DNA of 5,118 bases from a virus (Duplodnaviria > Heunggongvirae > Uroviricota > Caudoviricetes). Numbering within the stretch: the first letter of the stretch is position 1; every line of letters begins with the position of its first letter. The stretch is from positions 1 to 5,118 of IMG/VR virus record IMGVR_UViG_3300029517_000155. The stretch is one strand, 5' to 3'. The notes below the pieces were generated by a model. That model was not told where the DNA came from. It saw nothing but the letters and a program-made list of their open reading frames with translations, and did no database searches. Shown piece by piece: positions 1 through 5,118 of the stretch. Made by a program: the position numbers and the translations under genes.

Positions 1-55
1 ACTTAAAGGTATTAAAAACAACTTTTTGTCTTTTTACCTTCCCGTTTCGCTCAAG
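1..55. other. host chromosomal flank, B' arm of an attB(lambda)-type site
   Basis: Reverse complement reads CTTGAGCGAAACGGGAAGG directly 3' of the lambda core, matching the B' arm of E. coli attB as I recall it (..CTGCTTTTTTATACTAACTTGAGCGAAACG..). Recalled, not searched. Confidence 0.6.
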
Positions 56-70
56 TTAGTATAAAAAAGC
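56..70 (-). other. lambda-type attachment site core (O) at an attR (P-O-B') junction
   Basis: Exact 15-mer TTAGTATAAAAAAGC on the + strand, the reverse complement of the lambda common core GCTTTTTTATACTAA. It has lambda P-arm-like sequence on one side and attB B'-like sequence on the other. Confidence 0.85.
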
Positions 71-212
71 TGAACGCGAAACATTAAAAACCATTAATAT
101 CAATGTGTTACAATATCTTTAGTCTAAAAAATAGACTACATAATGCTACAAAACACAACATATCCAGTCACTATGAATCAACTACTTAGATAGTATTAGT
201 GACCTGAGACAG
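71..212 (-). other. lambda attP P-arm-like region with Int arm-type binding sites
   Basis: Reverse complement closely resembles the lambda P arm (..caggtcactaatac.atctaagtagttgattcatagtgactggatatgttgtgtttt..cgtttc.cgttca-core). CAGTCACTAT at 165-174 is a perfect match to the arm-type consensus (P2-like), and the reverse complement of 195-206 is a P1-like site (caggtcactaat). Confidence 0.8.
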
Positions 213-257
213 AGCATTAGCGCAAGGTGATTTTTGTCTTCTTGCGCTACTTTTTTG
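213..257 (+). terminator. tI / sib-like intrinsic terminator hairpin downstream of att
   Basis: GCGCAAG (220-226) pairs with CTTGCGC (241-247) and the stem extends to about 10 bp via flanking TTA/TA(A/C); it is followed by TTTTTT (251-256). It lies about 160-190 bp from the att core on the P-arm side, where lambda tI/sib sits, and resembles the lambda tI sequence as I recall it. Confidence 0.6.
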
Positions 258-419
258 TTATCAAACATGTCGCACTCCAGAGAAGCACAAAGCCTTGCAA
301 TCCAGTGCAAAGATTTGTGTGCCTCAGTTTTGTCTAAGTGTTCTACTGAAAACATAGTAAAATCGGCAACAGCTGGAAATCATTCAATACTCGCACTATC
401 GAAAGTTCACCAGCCAACC

Positions 420-460
420 GCAGCACGTTCTTGCATACGACGTGCTGCGGTTTTCTTTAT
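420..460 (+). terminator. candidate rho-independent terminator
   Basis: Perfect 9-bp stem GCAGCACGT (420-428) / ACGTGCTGC (440-448) with an 11-nt loop, followed by GGTTTTCTTTAT. The T-tract is on the + strand only. Confidence 0.35.
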
Positions 461-609: not shown

Positions 610-638
610 TTGACAGCGATTAACCAGAATAATAGTAT
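610..638 (+). promoter_or_regulatory. candidate sigma70 promoter for the diguanylate cyclase gene
   Basis: TTGACA (610-615), a 17-bp spacer, then TAGTAT (633-638). A (TA)n tract at 683-694 lies in the predicted leader, and the AGGTG Shine-Dalgarno at 701-705 is 5 nt before the ATG at 711. By eye only. Confidence 0.25.
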
Positions 639-710
639 ACTATCACCAGTAAGAAATTATCGTTATTTGTAGCGATACATATTATATATATATCATTCTC
701 AGGTGCGTAC

Positions 711-2042
711 ATGATTATCAACCAGGTACCTATAAAAATAAAAATCTTCATCTTTTTATTTTCATGCATCTCTATTATATTTTTGTTACTGCATGCAAAT
801 AATGGAATATACATAACACAAACAACACAAATAAGTTATAGTGTTTTCATTATTGGGCTTTTTTTCATAAACCTGATGATTTTTATTTTTCTATTGCTTT
901 ACTATGTTTCTAATCAGAGACAAAGTTATCTCTTAATTCTTTCATTCGCGTTTTTGAGCAACACGTATTATTTATTAGAAGTGGCTATTATTTCTTTATC
1001 TCCGTTAGGTAACGATTTATCTACAATCTATCAGAAATCAAATGATATCGCAATATATTATCTATTCCGTCAGTTCAGCTTTATATCTATAATCTTTCTG
1101 GCTGTTTATTCCACCAATGTTAAAAACAAAAGTGTTTTAGAAGATAAAAGAAACATAATAATTGTTGTTTTGTCAATATTAATTCTTTTTATTACTCCGT
1201 TTGTAGCAAAAAATCTAAGCAGTGACAATATAAAATATAGTCTTAATATTATACAATACTCGCTGAATCGTCATTTGCCGACGTGGAATATCGTGTACAC
1301 CAAAATAATATCAGTATTTTGGCTTGTATTACTTATCAGCTCATGCATCAGCATACGTAATTACTCAAAAATATGGTTGTGTATAATACTTATTAGTATA
1401 GTGTCAGTATGCAATAATCTAATTTTATTGTATTTTATTGATAAATCCCATCCTGCATGGTACATGACAAAATTTCTTGAATTGATATCAATGATTTATA
1501 TCATTTCAACACTCATGTATTATGTTTTCAGGAAATTAAATCATGCTAATCATATGGCAATTCATGATCCACTAACGAATACATACAATAGAAGATACTT
1601 TATTGACTCATTGAAGAATATATCAAAACACCATGATTTCTCAGTAATAATGTTAGATATTGACAATTTCAAAAGCATCAATGACAAATGGGGGCATCAT
1701 ATGGGTGATCAAGTCATAGTAATGGTTACCAGAATAATAAAAAAATCCATCAGGAAAGAGGATATATTAGGGCGCTTAGGCGGTGAGGAGTTCGGTATTA
1801 TCATTAAAGGTAATACTCAAAAGCTCTTGCTATCAATTGCAGAGCGAATCAGAAAAAACATTGAAGAGCAATGCTCGGAAAAATTATTATCGCATGGACC
1901 TGAGAAAATAACTGTCAGTATTGGTTGCTTTACTTCAAAAGAGAATAATCTCAGTCCATCTGAAATGTTAGTCAATGCCGATAAAGCGTTATATCAAGCC
2001 AAAAGAACCGGAAAAAACAAGGTGATAACTCACTCAAAATAA
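711..2042 (+). CDS. membrane-anchored diguanylate cyclase: about 8 predicted TM helices (MASE-like integral-membrane N-terminal domain) plus a C-terminal GGDEF domain; possibly DgcX-like
   Basis: 443-aa ORF with a good RBS. The first ~270 aa form about 8 hydrophobic stretches. The GGDEF domain starts at DPLTNTYNRRYF and carries an intact active-site GGEEF (nt 1779-1793) and an RxxD I-site (RKED, nt 1752-1763) five residues upstream. GC content is roughly 25-30 percent against about 50 percent in the flanking phage genes. Confidence 0.93.
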   Translation: MIINQVPIKIKIFIFLFSCISIIFLLLHANNGIYITQTTQISYSVFIIGLFFINLMIFIFLLLYYVSNQRQSYLLILSFAFLSNTYYLLEVAIISLSPLGNDLSTIYQKSNDIAIYYLFRQFSFISIIFLAVYSTNVKNKSVLEDKRNIIIVVLSILILFITPFVAKNLSSDNIKYSLNIIQYSLNRHLPTWNIVYTKIISVFWLVLLISSCISIRNYSKIWLCIILISIVSVCNNLILLYFIDKSHPAWYMTKFLELISMIYIISTLMYYVFRKLNHANHMAIHDPLTNTYNRRYFIDSLKNISKHHDFSVIMLDIDNFKSINDKWGHHMGDQVIVMVTRIIKKSIRKEDILGRLGGEEFGIIIKGNTQKLLLSIAERIRKNIEEQCSEKLLSHGPEKITVSIGCFTSKENNLSPSEMLVNADKALYQAKRTGKNKVITHSK

Positions 2043-2071
2043 ACACCTTTTTAAAATACAGCCCCAATAAA

Positions 2072-2104
2072 CTGCAGAATATTATCCCATATAATATCCT
2101 GCAG
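2072..2104. terminator. hairpin between convergent genes, possible bidirectional terminator
   Basis: CTGCAGAATATTAT (2072-2085) pairs with ATAATATCCTGCAG (2091-2104) at 13 of 14 positions around a 5-nt loop. It sits between the cyclase stop (2040-2042) and the minus-strand tfa remnant stop (2116-2118). The U-tract is weak on both strands. Confidence 0.35.
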
Positions 2105-2115
2105 TTCGTAATGCA

Positions 2116-2208
2116 CTATTCGATAATGGGTCCTGTTGGCCATTCAATATCCGGTGCAGTTGTTGTATTAACACGGTTCAGCAACACCCGATACTTCTTC
2201 CAGGCTTC
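2116..2208 (-). pseudogene. tail fibre assembly protein (lambda Tfa-like) C-terminal remnant
   Basis: Minus-strand translation [30 protein letters not shown]-stop is nearly identical to the lambda Tfa C-terminus as I recall it (..[32 protein letters not shown]). No N-terminal part is present, and it is in frame with the upstream pin remnant. Confidence 0.6.
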
Positions 2209-2442
2209 CACCACCAGCACGACAAGATGCCGCATACAGTGACCCAGTCAGTCCAGTTTCCAGACAACCAGTGCGTCACCTTTTTGAAGGCGCTTTAAAG
2301 CACGTTTTAATCCAGGTCGGCCTGTCCTTATTCCGCTTAATTTATCTTCAAATATTTGTTCACATCCTGCACAAACAAGAGCGTTTCGTTGCAGGTCTGT
2401 ATTCTGGTCATTTGTTGATACCCTTACATAGCCAATCAGCAC
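2209..2442 (-). pseudogene. serine DNA invertase (Pin/Gin/Cin/Hin family), N-terminal fragment with an in-frame stop
   Basis: From the GTG at 2442-2440 (GGGAG Shine-Dalgarno 7 nt upstream) it encodes (M)LIGYVRVSTNDQNTDLQRNALVCAGCEQIFEDKLSG.R..RPGLKRALKRLQKGD.LVVWKLD, matching the Pin N-terminus including the catalytic-serine motif YVRVSTNDQ. A TGA at 2248-2250 sits where Pin has Arg (KLD-R-LGRSM). Weak similarity continues ([12 protein letters not shown] vs LGRSMKHLISLV) and then switches to Tfa-like sequence, so the resolvase C-terminus and HTH are missing. Confidence 0.85.
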
Positions 2443-2496
2443 GCTGAATCTCCCGTCCAAAAGCACAAATCATGCCATGCAGGCCAGAAACCGCCA

Positions 2497-2522
2497 TTAT
2501 CTAAAACCTCGGTTTACAGGAA
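2497..2522. other. gix/pix-type 26-bp crossover site for a Gin/Pin invertase
   Basis: TTATCTAAAACCTCGGTTTACAGGAA has a reverse complement (TTCCTGTAAACC GA GGTTTTAGATAA) one mismatch from the Mu gix site as I recall it (TTCCTGTAAACCGAGGTTTTGGATAA). It is about 55 bp upstream of the pin start and exactly at the start of the tail-fibre variable-domain reading frame. Confidence 0.8.
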
Positions 2523-2723
2523 ACGGTAAATCAGGCTTCTGGCGCATTACAGAAAAACCAGAACGGCGCAGATATTCCGGGAAAAGATACCTTCACCAAA
2601 AACATTGGTGCCTGCCGCGCATATAGCGCATGGCTGAATATTGGTGGCGATAGTCAGGTCTGGACAACTGCGCAATTTATTTCGTGGCTGGAGAGTCAGG
2701 GGGCATTTAACCATCCTTACTGG

Positions 2724-3467
2724 ATGTGCAAAGGCTCATGGGCTTATGCAAATAATAAGGTTATTACAGATACAGGTTGCGGAAATATTTGTCTTGCAGG
2801 TGCTGTGGTGGAAGTTATTGGCACTCGCGGCGCAATGACCATACGCGTTACTACGCCGAGCACGTCCAGCGGTGGCGGAATTACTAACGCTCAATTCACT
2901 TATATTAATCATGGTGATGCTTACGCTCCTGGCTGGCGACGAGACTACAACACGAAAAACCAGCAGCCTGCATTTGCTTTAGGGCAAACAGGACGCAGGG
3001 TCACAAATGATAAAGCTGTTGGCTGGAACTGGAATAGCGGTGTTTATGATGCAGATATCAGTGGTGCATCGACATTAATCCTCCACTTCAATATGAATGC
3101 GGGGAGTTGCCCTGCTGTACAGTTCCGCGTGAATTACAGGAACGGCGGTATTTTTTATCGTTCAGCGCGTGATGGTTATGGCTTTGAAGCTAACTGGTCA
3201 GAGTTTTACACCACAACACGCAAACCCTCTGCGGGGGATGTTGGTGCATATACGCAGGCAGAATGTAACTCAAGGTTTATTACAGGTATTCGCCTTGGCG
3301 GTCTGTCATCTGTTCAGACATGGAAAGGCCCCGGCTGGTCTGACAGGTCAGGTTATGTCGTTACGGGTTCAGTTAACGGAAACCGTGATGAATTAATTGA
3401 TACAACTCAGGCAAGGCCAATTCAGTATTGCATTAATGGGACGTGGTATAACGCGGGGAGTATTTAA
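2724..3467 (+). CDS. phage side tail fibre protein, C-terminal variable (receptor-binding) segment; orphaned partial gene
   Basis: The open frame begins straight after the stop at 2502-2504, inside the pix site, and reads ..NQASGALQKNQNGADIPGKDTFTKNIGACRAYSAWLNIGGDSQVWTTAQF.. before the first ATG at 2724. This is typical of the variable C-terminal cassette of e14/Mu/P1-type invertible tail-fibre genes. There is no constant N-terminal part and no convincing RBS at 2724; the stop is directly followed by tfa. Confidence 0.75.
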   Translation: MCKGSWAYANNKVITDTGCGNICLAGAVVEVIGTRGAMTIRVTTPSTSSGGGITNAQFTYINHGDAYAPGWRRDYNTKNQQPAFALGQTGRRVTNDKAVGWNWNSGVYDADISGASTLILHFNMNAGSCPAVQFRVNYRNGGIFYRSARDGYGFEANWSEFYTTTRKPSAGDVGAYTQAECNSRFITGIRLGGLSSVQTWKGPGWSDRSGYVVTGSVNGNRDELIDTTQARPIQYCINGTWYNAGSI

Positions 3468-3469
3468 CG

Positions 3470-5118
<1,649 letters not shown>

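What the first reader, a model, noticed from the sequence alone, without database searches (positions are those of the whole stretch)
711..1530. Eight-helix integral-membrane N-terminal domain of unknown signal input
Residues 1-270 form about 8 hydrophobic segments by inspection, with almost no periplasmic or cytoplasmic loops of any size. That is the MASE-type architecture found on some E. coli cyclases, but I cannot assign the family from sequence alone. What a phage-borne cyclase senses (membrane state, phage infection, envelope stress) is unknown.
Basis: inference. Interest (0 to 1): 0.55.

Follow-up and report, generated by a model that had tools for sequence, protein, structure and literature searches.

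The report
DgcX cyclase's MASE4 membrane sensor domain
The eight-helix membrane region is real, but it is the already described MASE4 sensor domain of DgcX, a prophage-carried E. coli enzyme that makes the biofilm signal c-di-GMP, and the signal it senses is still unknown.

Summary
Window 711-2042 (+) encodes a 443-aa protein. Residues 1-273 form eight transmembrane helices, and the longest loop is 24 residues. This is supported by hydropathy, two AlphaFold2 models and a family-wide positive-inside bias.

It is fused to an intact GGDEF cyclase domain with a GGEEF active site and an RKED inhibition site.

The protein is 439/443 identical to DgcX of enteroaggregative E. coli 55989 and sits at the same place, the lambda attB locus next to ybhB. 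DgcX was described in 2014 with the same features: a hydrophobic N-terminal domain of about 270 aa, eight predicted helices and an unknown signal. It was later named a MASE4-GGDEF protein.

Three small refinements came out of the work:
- The gene lies inside the prophage, 640 bp from an exact lambda att core, in the b-region position.
- The conserved MASE4 core is seven helices (TM2-8) with a GPCR-like fold, which has already been published for the paralogues DgcT and CdgI.
- The conserved polar residues lie in the periplasmic half of the helix bundle.

The sensed signal remains unknown. Verdict: already known, low interest.

The parts
711..2042 (+). dgcX coding sequence (443 codons plus stop): MASE4-GGDEF diguanylate cyclase
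   Evidence: ORF list. Pfam MASE4 plus GGDEF. 439/443 identical to DgcX of E. coli 55989. RefSeq annotates the same ORF in strain SL124.
711..1530 (+).
   Evidence: Hydropathy, AlphaFold2, positive-inside bias.
828..1532 (+). Pfam MASE4 match (residues 40-274), which spans TM2 to TM8
   Evidence: E = 7.4e-36, 124.2 bits, model positions 4-237 of 239.
732..800 (+). TM1 (residues 8-30). It lies outside the Pfam model, is poorly conserved and has lower pLDDT than the other helices.
819..911 (+). TM2 (residues 37-67); L50 and F60 are invariant
924..998 (+). TM3 (residues 72-96); E90 is conserved in 17 of 23 relatives, near the periplasmic end
1017..1115 (+). TM4 (residues 103-135) carrying the family motif N111-D112...F119-R120-Q121
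1146..1217 (+). TM5 (residues 146-169), followed by the conserved L-S-S motif (169-171)
1251..1286 (+). Short beta-hairpin (residues 181-192) in the longest loop (periplasmic by inference), ending at invariant W192
1290..1352 (+). TM6 (residues 194-214); W204 is invariant
1368..1433 (+). TM7 (residues 220-241); W222 is invariant and N236 conserved
1452..1562 (+). TM8 plus a continuous linker helix (residues 248-284) running into GGDEF; W250 and E257 are invariant
1557..2021 (+). GGDEF catalytic domain (residues 283-437)
1752..1763 (+). I-site R348-K-E-D351 (RxxD), five residues upstream of the A-site
   Evidence: Read directly from the sequence. Described for DgcX in PMC4287979.
1779..1793 (+). 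A-site G357-G-E-E-F361. E359 and E360 are the residues mutated in the published DgcX catalytic mutants.
   Evidence: Read directly from the sequence. PMC10459773 (E359A/E360A).
610..638 (+). Best sigma-70-like promoter match upstream of dgcX (TTGACA-17-TAGTAT, 10 of 12)
   Evidence: This is a consensus match only; the number of such sites in the region is not above the shuffled expectation.
56..70 (-). Exact 15-bp lambda att core (GCTTTTTTATACTAA)
   Evidence: no match in any of 200 shuffles. Aligns to lambda 27724-27738.
71..460 (-). Lambdoid P arm and sib region, which makes this junction an attR (P-O-B')
   Evidence: 88.7% identical to lambda 27471-27742, and 94-96% identical to HK106/HK97 up to position 460.
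1..55 (.). Bacterial B' arm next to ybhB
   Evidence: identical in strains SL124 and 55989; there is no phage match before position 52.
2070..2106 (+). 16-bp stem and 5-nt loop hairpin 28 nt after the stop codon. It marks the end of the DNA block shared with the argU-site paralogue.
   Evidence: minimum free energy -16 kcal/mol, z = -5.3; homology runs 699-2112.

Best explanation
The segment encodes the MASE4 input domain of DgcX, an inner-membrane diguanylate cyclase carried as cargo in the b-region of a lambdoid prophage at attB.

Shown here:
- The domain has eight helices. A poorly conserved TM1 is followed by the conserved seven-helix MASE4 core (TM2-8), which has a GPCR-like bundle fold.
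- TM8 continues without a break as a helix into a GGDEF domain with an intact GGEEF active site and an RxxD inhibitory site.

Inferred mechanism:
- The topology is N-in/C-in.
- GGDEF enzymes must pair two catalytic domains to make c-di-GMP. I therefore propose that the MASE4 bundle sets, through the TM8/linker helix, how the two catalytic domains of a dimer face each other.
- The conserved polar and aromatic residues (E90, N111, D112, R120, S170/S171, W192, N236, W250, E257) all lie in the periplasmic half of the bundle. I propose that they form the site where a small amphipathic or lipid-like periplasmic or outer-leaflet signal, or a membrane property, is read.
- Product feedback through the I-site limits output.

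The identity of the signal is unknown.
For: Identity:
- Pfam MASE4 plus GGDEF.
- 99% identical to DgcX of strain 55989, at the same ybhB/attB locus.
- 37-38% identical over both domains to DgcT and CdgI.
- The published description matches (PMC4287979, PMC10459773, PMC5635695).

Architecture:
- Hydropathy.
- Two AlphaFold2 models with the same eight helices and a continuous TM8-linker helix.
- K+R bias of 12.1 inside against 5.3 outside.

More than a membrane anchor:
- N111, W192, W204, W222, W250 and E257 are invariant, and R120 is present in 22 of 23 relatives, down to about 20% identity.
- dN/dS for the MASE4 part is 0.16-0.20, close to the 0.11-0.14 of GGDEF.

Receptor-like fold:
- The same resemblance is published for DgcT and CdgI (PMC10760455).

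Catalytic competence:
- GGEEF and RKED motifs are present.
- Published E359A/E360A mutants lose the cellulose phenotype (PMC10459773).
Against: - No ligand or stimulus is known for any MASE4 protein in the papers I could search.
- The claim that the conserved residues cluster in the periplasmic half rests on their positions along predicted helices. It is not based on 3D coordinates, which the tools did not expose.
- The dimer was not modelled.
- dgcX is reported to be very highly and almost constitutively expressed (PMC4287979). Output could therefore be governed mainly by expression level and the I-site rather than by a signal.
Confidence: 0.9

Rival explanations
1. The membrane domain is mainly an anchor or scaffold. 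It places a constitutively active, highly expressed cyclase next to membrane targets such as cellulose or PGA synthases (local signalling) and senses no ligand.
For: - The reported expression is very high and nearly constitutive (PMC4287979).
- Overexpression raises cellulose but not CsgD, which suggests a local, target-specific output (PMC10459773).
- There is no periplasmic domain.
- No ligand is known.
Against: - An anchor needs hydrophobicity, not invariant buried polar residues (N111, R120, E257) and four invariant tryptophans kept down to about 20% identity.
- Seven helices in a receptor-like bundle are far more than anchoring requires.
- dN/dS is almost as low as for the catalytic domain.
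Confidence: 0.25
2. The MASE4 bundle is a transporter or channel, and cyclase activity is coupled to substrate flux.
For: Eight membrane helices with conserved charged residues inside the membrane.
Against: - There is no Pfam, NCBIfam or PDB sequence match to any transporter family.
- All 60 listed structural neighbours are GPCR-fold seven-helix bundles: receptors, two designed GPCR-like proteins and the GPCR-like protein LYCHOS. No classical transporter or channel family is among them.
- No internal repeat or inverted-repeat architecture is evident.
Confidence: 0.03
3. The hydrophobic segments are a by-product of very AT-rich DNA (codons rich in Phe, Ile, Leu, Asn, Lys and Tyr), not a real folded domain.
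For: The segment has 27% G+C, against 48% in the neighbouring prophage DNA.
Against: - HMM match at E = 7e-36.
- Homologues exist in other genera with conserved motifs.
- Confident AlphaFold2 model with pTM 0.82.
- Purifying selection.
- Published phenotypes for the full-length protein (PMC10459773).
Confidence: 0.01

Closest known systems
DgcX of enteroaggregative E. coli 55989 and the O104:H4 2011 outbreak strain (Richter et al. 2014, PMC4287979; CAU96679.1 / WP_000586343.1)
   Same: - It is the same gene: 439/443 residues are identical.
- The locus between ybhB and a lambdoid prophage at attB is the same, and the upstream 710 bp are near-identical, with a handful of single-base differences.
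- The GGEEF A-site, the RxxD I-site and the hydrophobic N-terminal domain of about 270 aa are the same.
   Different: - Four substitutions: A29E, P190S, I194T and K245Q.
- The adjoining prophage in this window is much more decayed: a gpA-J fusion and a truncated invertase.
DgcT (YcdT) and CdgI (YeaI) of E. coli K-12, the chromosomal MASE4-GGDEF paralogues
   Same: - Same two-domain architecture, with 37-38% identity across both domains.
- The same MASE4 motifs are present: ND..FRQ, LSS, the invariant tryptophans and W-Y-x-x-R/K-x-x-E.
- The GPCR-like seven-helix fold is published for both (PMC10760455) and reproduced here for DgcX.
   Different: - DgcT and CdgI are core-genome genes. According to PMC5635695 they are repressed by CsrA and barely expressed, whereas dgcX is prophage cargo and reported to be very highly expressed.
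[quoted passage not shown]
Pfam MASE4 (PF17158), membrane-associated sensor domain
   Same: Full-length match well above the gathering score.
   Different: - The Pfam model covers seven helices (residues 40-274). DgcX has one more N-terminal helix outside the model.
- The family has no known ligand.
Eukaryotic GPCR seven-transmembrane fold (for example GABA-B, prostaglandin F2-alpha and adhesion receptors)
- The last membrane helix is followed by a cytoplasmic helix.
- The output is a nucleotide second messenger.
   Different: - Identity is 4-13% and there is no sequence-level match.
- The extra TM1 puts the N-terminus inside the cell.
- The cyclase is fused directly, with no G protein.
- Homology is unproven.
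MASE1 and MASE2 membrane sensor domains (for example on DgcE, PdeA and DgcC/AdrA)
   Same: They follow the same logic: multi-helix integral-membrane input domains with short loops, fused to GGDEF or EAL output domains.
   Different: There is no detectable sequence relationship; only MASE4 matches, even at E <= 10.

Membership tests
MASE4 (Pfam PF17158) | HMM score above the curated gathering threshold | tested here: met
   124.2 bits against a cut-off of 28.4, E = 7.4e-36.
MASE4 (Pfam PF17158) | Match covers essentially the whole model | tested here: met
   Model positions 4-237 of 239, residues 40-274.
MASE4 (Pfam PF17158) | Integral-membrane multi-helix domain with short loops | tested here: met
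   Eight helices by hydropathy and AlphaFold2; loops are 24 residues or shorter.
MASE4 (Pfam PF17158) | Family-conserved residues present (N111, D112, F119, R120, S171, W192, W204, W222, W250, E257) | tested here: met
   All are present in DgcX. In the DgcX clade the usual R of the W-Y-x-S-R-x-x-E motif is K254.
MASE4 (Pfam PF17158) | N-terminal to a cytoplasmic signalling output domain | tested here: met
   GGDEF at residues 283-437.
MASE4 (Pfam PF17158) | Responds to a defined signal | not testable with these tools
   No ligand is reported in the searchable literature.
DgcX orthologue group | Near-identity to the protein first named DgcX | tested here: met
   439/443 identical to the 55989 protein. 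55989 is one of the three strains in which dgcX was defined (PMC4287979).
DgcX orthologue group | Located beside lambdoid prophage DNA at attB (between ybhB and ybhC) | tested here: met
Active GGDEF diguanylate cyclase | Intact GG(D/E)EF A-site | tested here: met
   G357-G-E-E-F361, read from the sequence.
Active GGDEF diguanylate cyclase | RxxD I-site five residues upstream of the A-site | tested here: met
   R348-K-E-D351.
Active GGDEF diguanylate cyclase | Synthesises c-di-GMP | not testable with these tools
   Only published phenotypes of wild type against E359A/E360A mutants are available (PMC10459773).
GPCR superfamily | Seven-helix bundle with GPCR helix packing | tested here: met
GPCR superfamily | Detectable sequence homology | tested here: not met
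   4-13% identity in the structural alignments. A MASE4 profile finds no PDB chain at E <= 1.
GPCR superfamily | N-terminus outside the cell, with seven helices | tested here: inconclusive
Phage-encoded accessory gene (moron) | Lies between the prophage att junction and phage structural genes | tested here: met
   att core at 56-70, P arm at 71-460, dgcX at 711-2042, then tail-fibre genes. In 55989 the order is J-lom-stf-tfa-dgcX-ybhB.
Phage-encoded accessory gene (moron) | Found in sequenced phage genomes | tested here: not met
   No dgcX DNA and no MASE4 protein match in 50,697 phage records. No PHROG family matches the MASE4 part.

The most novel reading that the evidence does not exclude
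MASE4 may be a true ligand-gated, GPCR-like receptor. Its periplasm-facing pocket, lined by E90, N111, D112, R120 and E257, would bind a gut- or host-derived amphipathic small molecule. Lambdoid prophages would then spread this ready-made 'host signal to biofilm' switch between E. coli lineages; DgcX-clade copies sit at four different prophage integration sites. Showing this would give the first ligand for the family and a direct bacterial receptor-cyclase analogue of GPCR signalling.
Probability: 0.12. Interest if true: 0.6.

Novelty: already known. Interest (0 to 1): 0.15.

Why it matters
DgcX is a horizontally spread, reportedly very highly expressed c-di-GMP synthase. It is found in enteroaggregative strains, including the 2011 O104:H4 outbreak strain, and here in 775 of 5,426 complete E. 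coli genomes. The input to its membrane domain would say when these strains turn on matrix production in the host. That question is open and worth answering, but it is already posed in the literature for this very protein, and sequence analysis adds only refinements.

Tried and rejected
- **Word-indexed homologue searches** reached almost only the DgcX clade; the profile searches added a few DgcT-like fragments and Rahnella relatives. The one exhaustive search was run with a single sequence, so the count of 27 cluster representatives is a lower bound on family size.
- **Structure prediction.** I rebuilt the alignment without them as A5.
- **Fold search.** The afdb50 library was unavailable, so I could not look for other bacterial families with the same fold.
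- **Papers.** The two J Bacteriol 2016 papers that name MASE4 and survey dgcX are not held.
- **Anti-phage defence role.** There is no PADLOC match.
- **Viral structural relatives.** Nothing was significant in BFVD; there were only weak hits to GPCRs of eukaryotic viruses.
- **Periplasmic-loop lead.** All four differences from the 55989 allele lie at or near the periplasmic face, which suggested diversifying selection on the periplasmic loops. I rejected this: across the wider clade, periplasmic and cytoplasmic loops vary equally.
- **Chromosomal-ancestor lead.** A DgcX-like gene beside nfrBA-ybcH looked like a possible chromosomal ancestor. This is weakened because that copy also abuts argU, a prophage integration site, and the shared DNA is only the gene cassette.

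Full report
**1. What is in the sequence**

The only long ORF in the flagged region is 711..2042 on the + strand, 443 codons. RefSeq annotates the same ORF in near-identical genomes as 'sensor domain-containing diguanylate cyclase'.

Pfam splits the protein into two domains:
- MASE4 (PF17158), residues 40-274, E = 7.4e-36, 124.2 bits against a gathering score of 28.4, covering model positions 4-237 of 239.
- GGDEF (PF00990), residues 283-437, E = 9.6e-45.

No other MASE family appears, even at E <= 10. NCBIfam confirms the GGDEF domain but places the protein in no named equivalog.

**2. Checking the eight-helix claim**

- A 19-residue Kyte-Doolittle scan finds eight hydrophobic segments within residues 1-273 and none after them.
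- AlphaFold2 was run twice. One run used the full-length protein with 22 homologues (mean pLDDT 79.9). The other used the N-terminal 284 residues with 23 homologues (pLDDT 79.9, pTM 0.82).
- Both runs give helices 8-30, 37-67, 72-96, 103-135, 146-169, 194-214, 220-241 and 248-284.
- Loops are 4-24 residues. The longest, 170-193, holds a small beta-hairpin.
- TM8 runs on without a break as a helix into the GGDEF domain.
- Across 23 family members, lysine plus arginine average 12.1 per protein in the segments predicted to be cytoplasmic and 5.3 in those predicted to be periplasmic. This agrees with an N-in/C-in topology and a cytoplasmic cyclase domain.

The observation, its coordinates and the remark about short loops are therefore all confirmed.

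The published helix counts disagree: eight in PMC4287979 and six, from SMART, in PMC10459773. My results favour eight. TM3, TM4 and TM8 are the least hydrophobic, which may be why a stricter predictor misses two of them; that is inference.

The segment is not a side effect of AT-rich DNA (27% G+C). It matches a curated model, it has relatives at 20-38% identity that keep invariant polar and aromatic residues, and it evolves under purifying selection. dN/dS is 0.20 and 0.16 against two diverged copies, compared with 0.11 and 0.14 for the GGDEF part.

**3. Identity**

- The protein is 439/443 identical to WP_000586343.1 of E. coli 55989. 55989 is one of the three enteroaggregative strains in which Richter et al. 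defined dgcX (PMC4287979).
- The locus is the same. In 55989 the gene order is J-lom-tail fibre-tfa-dgcX-ybhB-bioA, and the 710 bp upstream of the gene are almost identical to the window.
- The A-site is G357-G-E-E-F361. The I-site is R348-K-E-D351, five residues upstream, as published. E359 and E360 are the residues mutated in the published catalytic mutants (PMC10459773).
- DgcX is 37% identical to DgcT/YcdT and 38% to CdgI/YeaI over both domains. These are the paralogues named in the literature (PMC4287979, PMC5635695, PMC10459773).

[quoted passage not shown] The 2023 paper calls it a MASE4-GGDEF protein. The finding therefore restates what is known.

**4. Setting: is it phage-borne?**

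- Window 56-70 is an exact copy of the 15-bp lambda att core (no match in any of 200 shuffles).
- Positions 71-323 align to the lambda P arm (lambda 27471-27723), and the match to HK97/HK106 extends to 460, including the sib site.
- Positions 1-55 are the bacterial arm next to ybhB.

This is an attR junction (P-O-B'). dgcX begins 640 bp inside it, between the P arm and the tail-fibre genes, where lambda has its non-essential b region. The gene is therefore cargo within the prophage boundaries, not flanking host DNA.

Its G+C content is 30%, against 48% for the neighbouring phage genes, as expected for an acquired accessory gene.

On the other hand, none of 50,697 deposited phage genomes contains dgcX DNA or any MASE4-like protein, and no PHROG family matches the MASE4 part.

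The prophage in this window is badly decayed:
- One ORF fuses terminase gpA to the second Ig domain of J.
- The Pin-type invertase is cut to its N-terminal half.

dgcX is present in 775 of 5,426 complete E. coli genomes.

**5. Family and fold**

- An exhaustive single-sequence search of 1.84 billion cluster representatives finds only 27 proteins at E <= 0.001. Where a source names the organism they are Escherichia or Rahnella, and PMC7232144 reports MASE4-GGDEF proteins in Enterobacter and relatives. The family looks small and enterobacterial.
- A MASE4 profile finds no solved structure by sequence.
- This is not new either. Genome Res 2023 (PMC10760455) reported DgcT and CdgI as GPCR-like seven-helix proteins fused to a cyclase.
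- The Pfam model spans residues 40-274, which is TM2-TM8. The conserved core is therefore seven helices, and TM1 is a poorly conserved addition that would put the N-terminus in the cytoplasm.

**6. How it most likely works**

Shown:
- The domain order.
- The continuous TM8-to-linker helix.
- The intact catalytic and inhibitory motifs.
- The strong conservation inside the membrane.

Established for GGDEF enzymes in general: two catalytic domains must meet for catalysis, so N-terminal domains act by controlling dimer geometry.

Inferred:
- MASE4 reads a signal and passes it down TM8.
- The conserved polar residues sit in the periplasmic half of their helices: E90 (17 of 23), N111 (23 of 23), D112 (20 of 23), R120 (22 of 23), S171 (22 of 23), N236 (17 of 23) and E257 (23 of 23). 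Invariant W192 and W250 lie at the periplasmic interface. This is roughly where GPCRs bind their ligands, and it suggests a small amphipathic or lipid-like signal, or a membrane property.

The main rival is that the domain only anchors and localises a constitutively expressed enzyme. The reported very high expression and the cellulose-specific output support that rival. The conserved buried polar residues and the low dN/dS argue against it.

**7. Verdict**

The whole picture is already published for this exact protein.

The refinements made here are:
- The gene's position inside attR.
- The one-plus-seven helix reading.
- Support for eight helices over six.
- The periplasmic-side placement of the conserved polar residues.
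- The small size of the family.
- The presence of DgcX-clade copies at four prophage integration sites.

The open question, what MASE4 senses, needs experiments.

Noticed in passing
window 3957-5105 (-): A single 383-codon ORF fuses the terminase large subunit gpA (ATPase domain plus the start of the nuclease domain) in frame to the second Ig-like domain of tail-tip protein J. An internal deletion has removed all head and tail genes. The same junction was found in only 2 of 5,426 complete E. coli genomes.
   Followed up: partly
window 2116-2466 (-): The window holds a tail-fibre-assembly gene remnant and only the N-terminal half (72 aa, Resolvase domain) of a Pin-type serine invertase. They sit next to a tail-fibre C-terminal piece (2724-3467, gp37_C) and an intact tfa gene (3470-3988). 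The tail-fibre inversion switch is dead.
   Followed up: partly
window 1-460: There is an exact lambda att core at 56-70, with the bacterial arm on one side and the lambdoid P arm and sib region on the other. This is an attR junction, so dgcX lies inside the prophage in the b-region position. An aberrant excision at this att site would have replaced the P arm, so the layout argues against a recent pickup of that kind.
   Followed up: yes
L012 7107-8438; L005 8001-9341; L009 8001-9335: DgcX-clade genes occur at three further prophage integration sites. One is the argW/intS-dsdC (CPS-53) site (92.9% nucleotide identity over the query; the gene and flanks align end to end, with the same tfa remnant downstream). 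One is the uspF end of a Rac-like prophage (51% amino-acid identity). One lies between ybcH-nfrA-nfrB and argU-folD in a genome whose flanks are about 90% identical to E. coli (63-68% amino-acid identity).
   Followed up: partly
window 699-2112 and hairpin 2070-2106: DNA similarity between the window and the argU-site paralogue runs only from 12 bp before the start codon to just after a strong hairpin 28 nt past the stop codon (16-bp stem, -16 kcal/mol, z = -5.3, no U-tract). The conserved unit is therefore the bare gene plus this hairpin. The role of the hairpin was not tested.
   Followed up: partly
L009 1571-7658: The argU-site paralogue sits directly downstream of nfrB (a glycosyltransferase with an MshEN c-di-GMP-binding domain), nfrA and ybcH. 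From my own knowledge, this is the c-di-GMP-dependent phage N4 receptor polysaccharide system. A functional link between that paralogue and NfrB is possible but untested.
   Followed up: no
window 610-638: The best sigma-70-like promoter match in the upstream region (TTGACA-17-TAGTAT, 10 of 12) lies about 70 bp before the start codon. This fits the reported very high expression, but it is only a consensus match.
   Followed up: no
H16 (NZ_CM169495.1) and protein clusters P0010, P0012, P0014: In strain EC05 the dgcX match is split in two pieces with an IS1B element under it. Several large clusters of truncated 'MASE4 domain-containing protein, partial' sequences also exist (for example 657 members of 170 aa). 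Some alleles may be disrupted, or these may be contig-end artefacts.
   Followed up: no
window 711-2042 against 2043-5118: There is a sharp composition step: dgcX has 30% G+C (27% in the MASE4 part), against 48% in the adjoining prophage genes.
   Followed up: yes
literature on DgcX: Published helix counts disagree: eight in PMC4287979 and six, by SMART, in PMC10459773. Hydropathy, AlphaFold2 and charge bias here support eight.
   Followed up: yes
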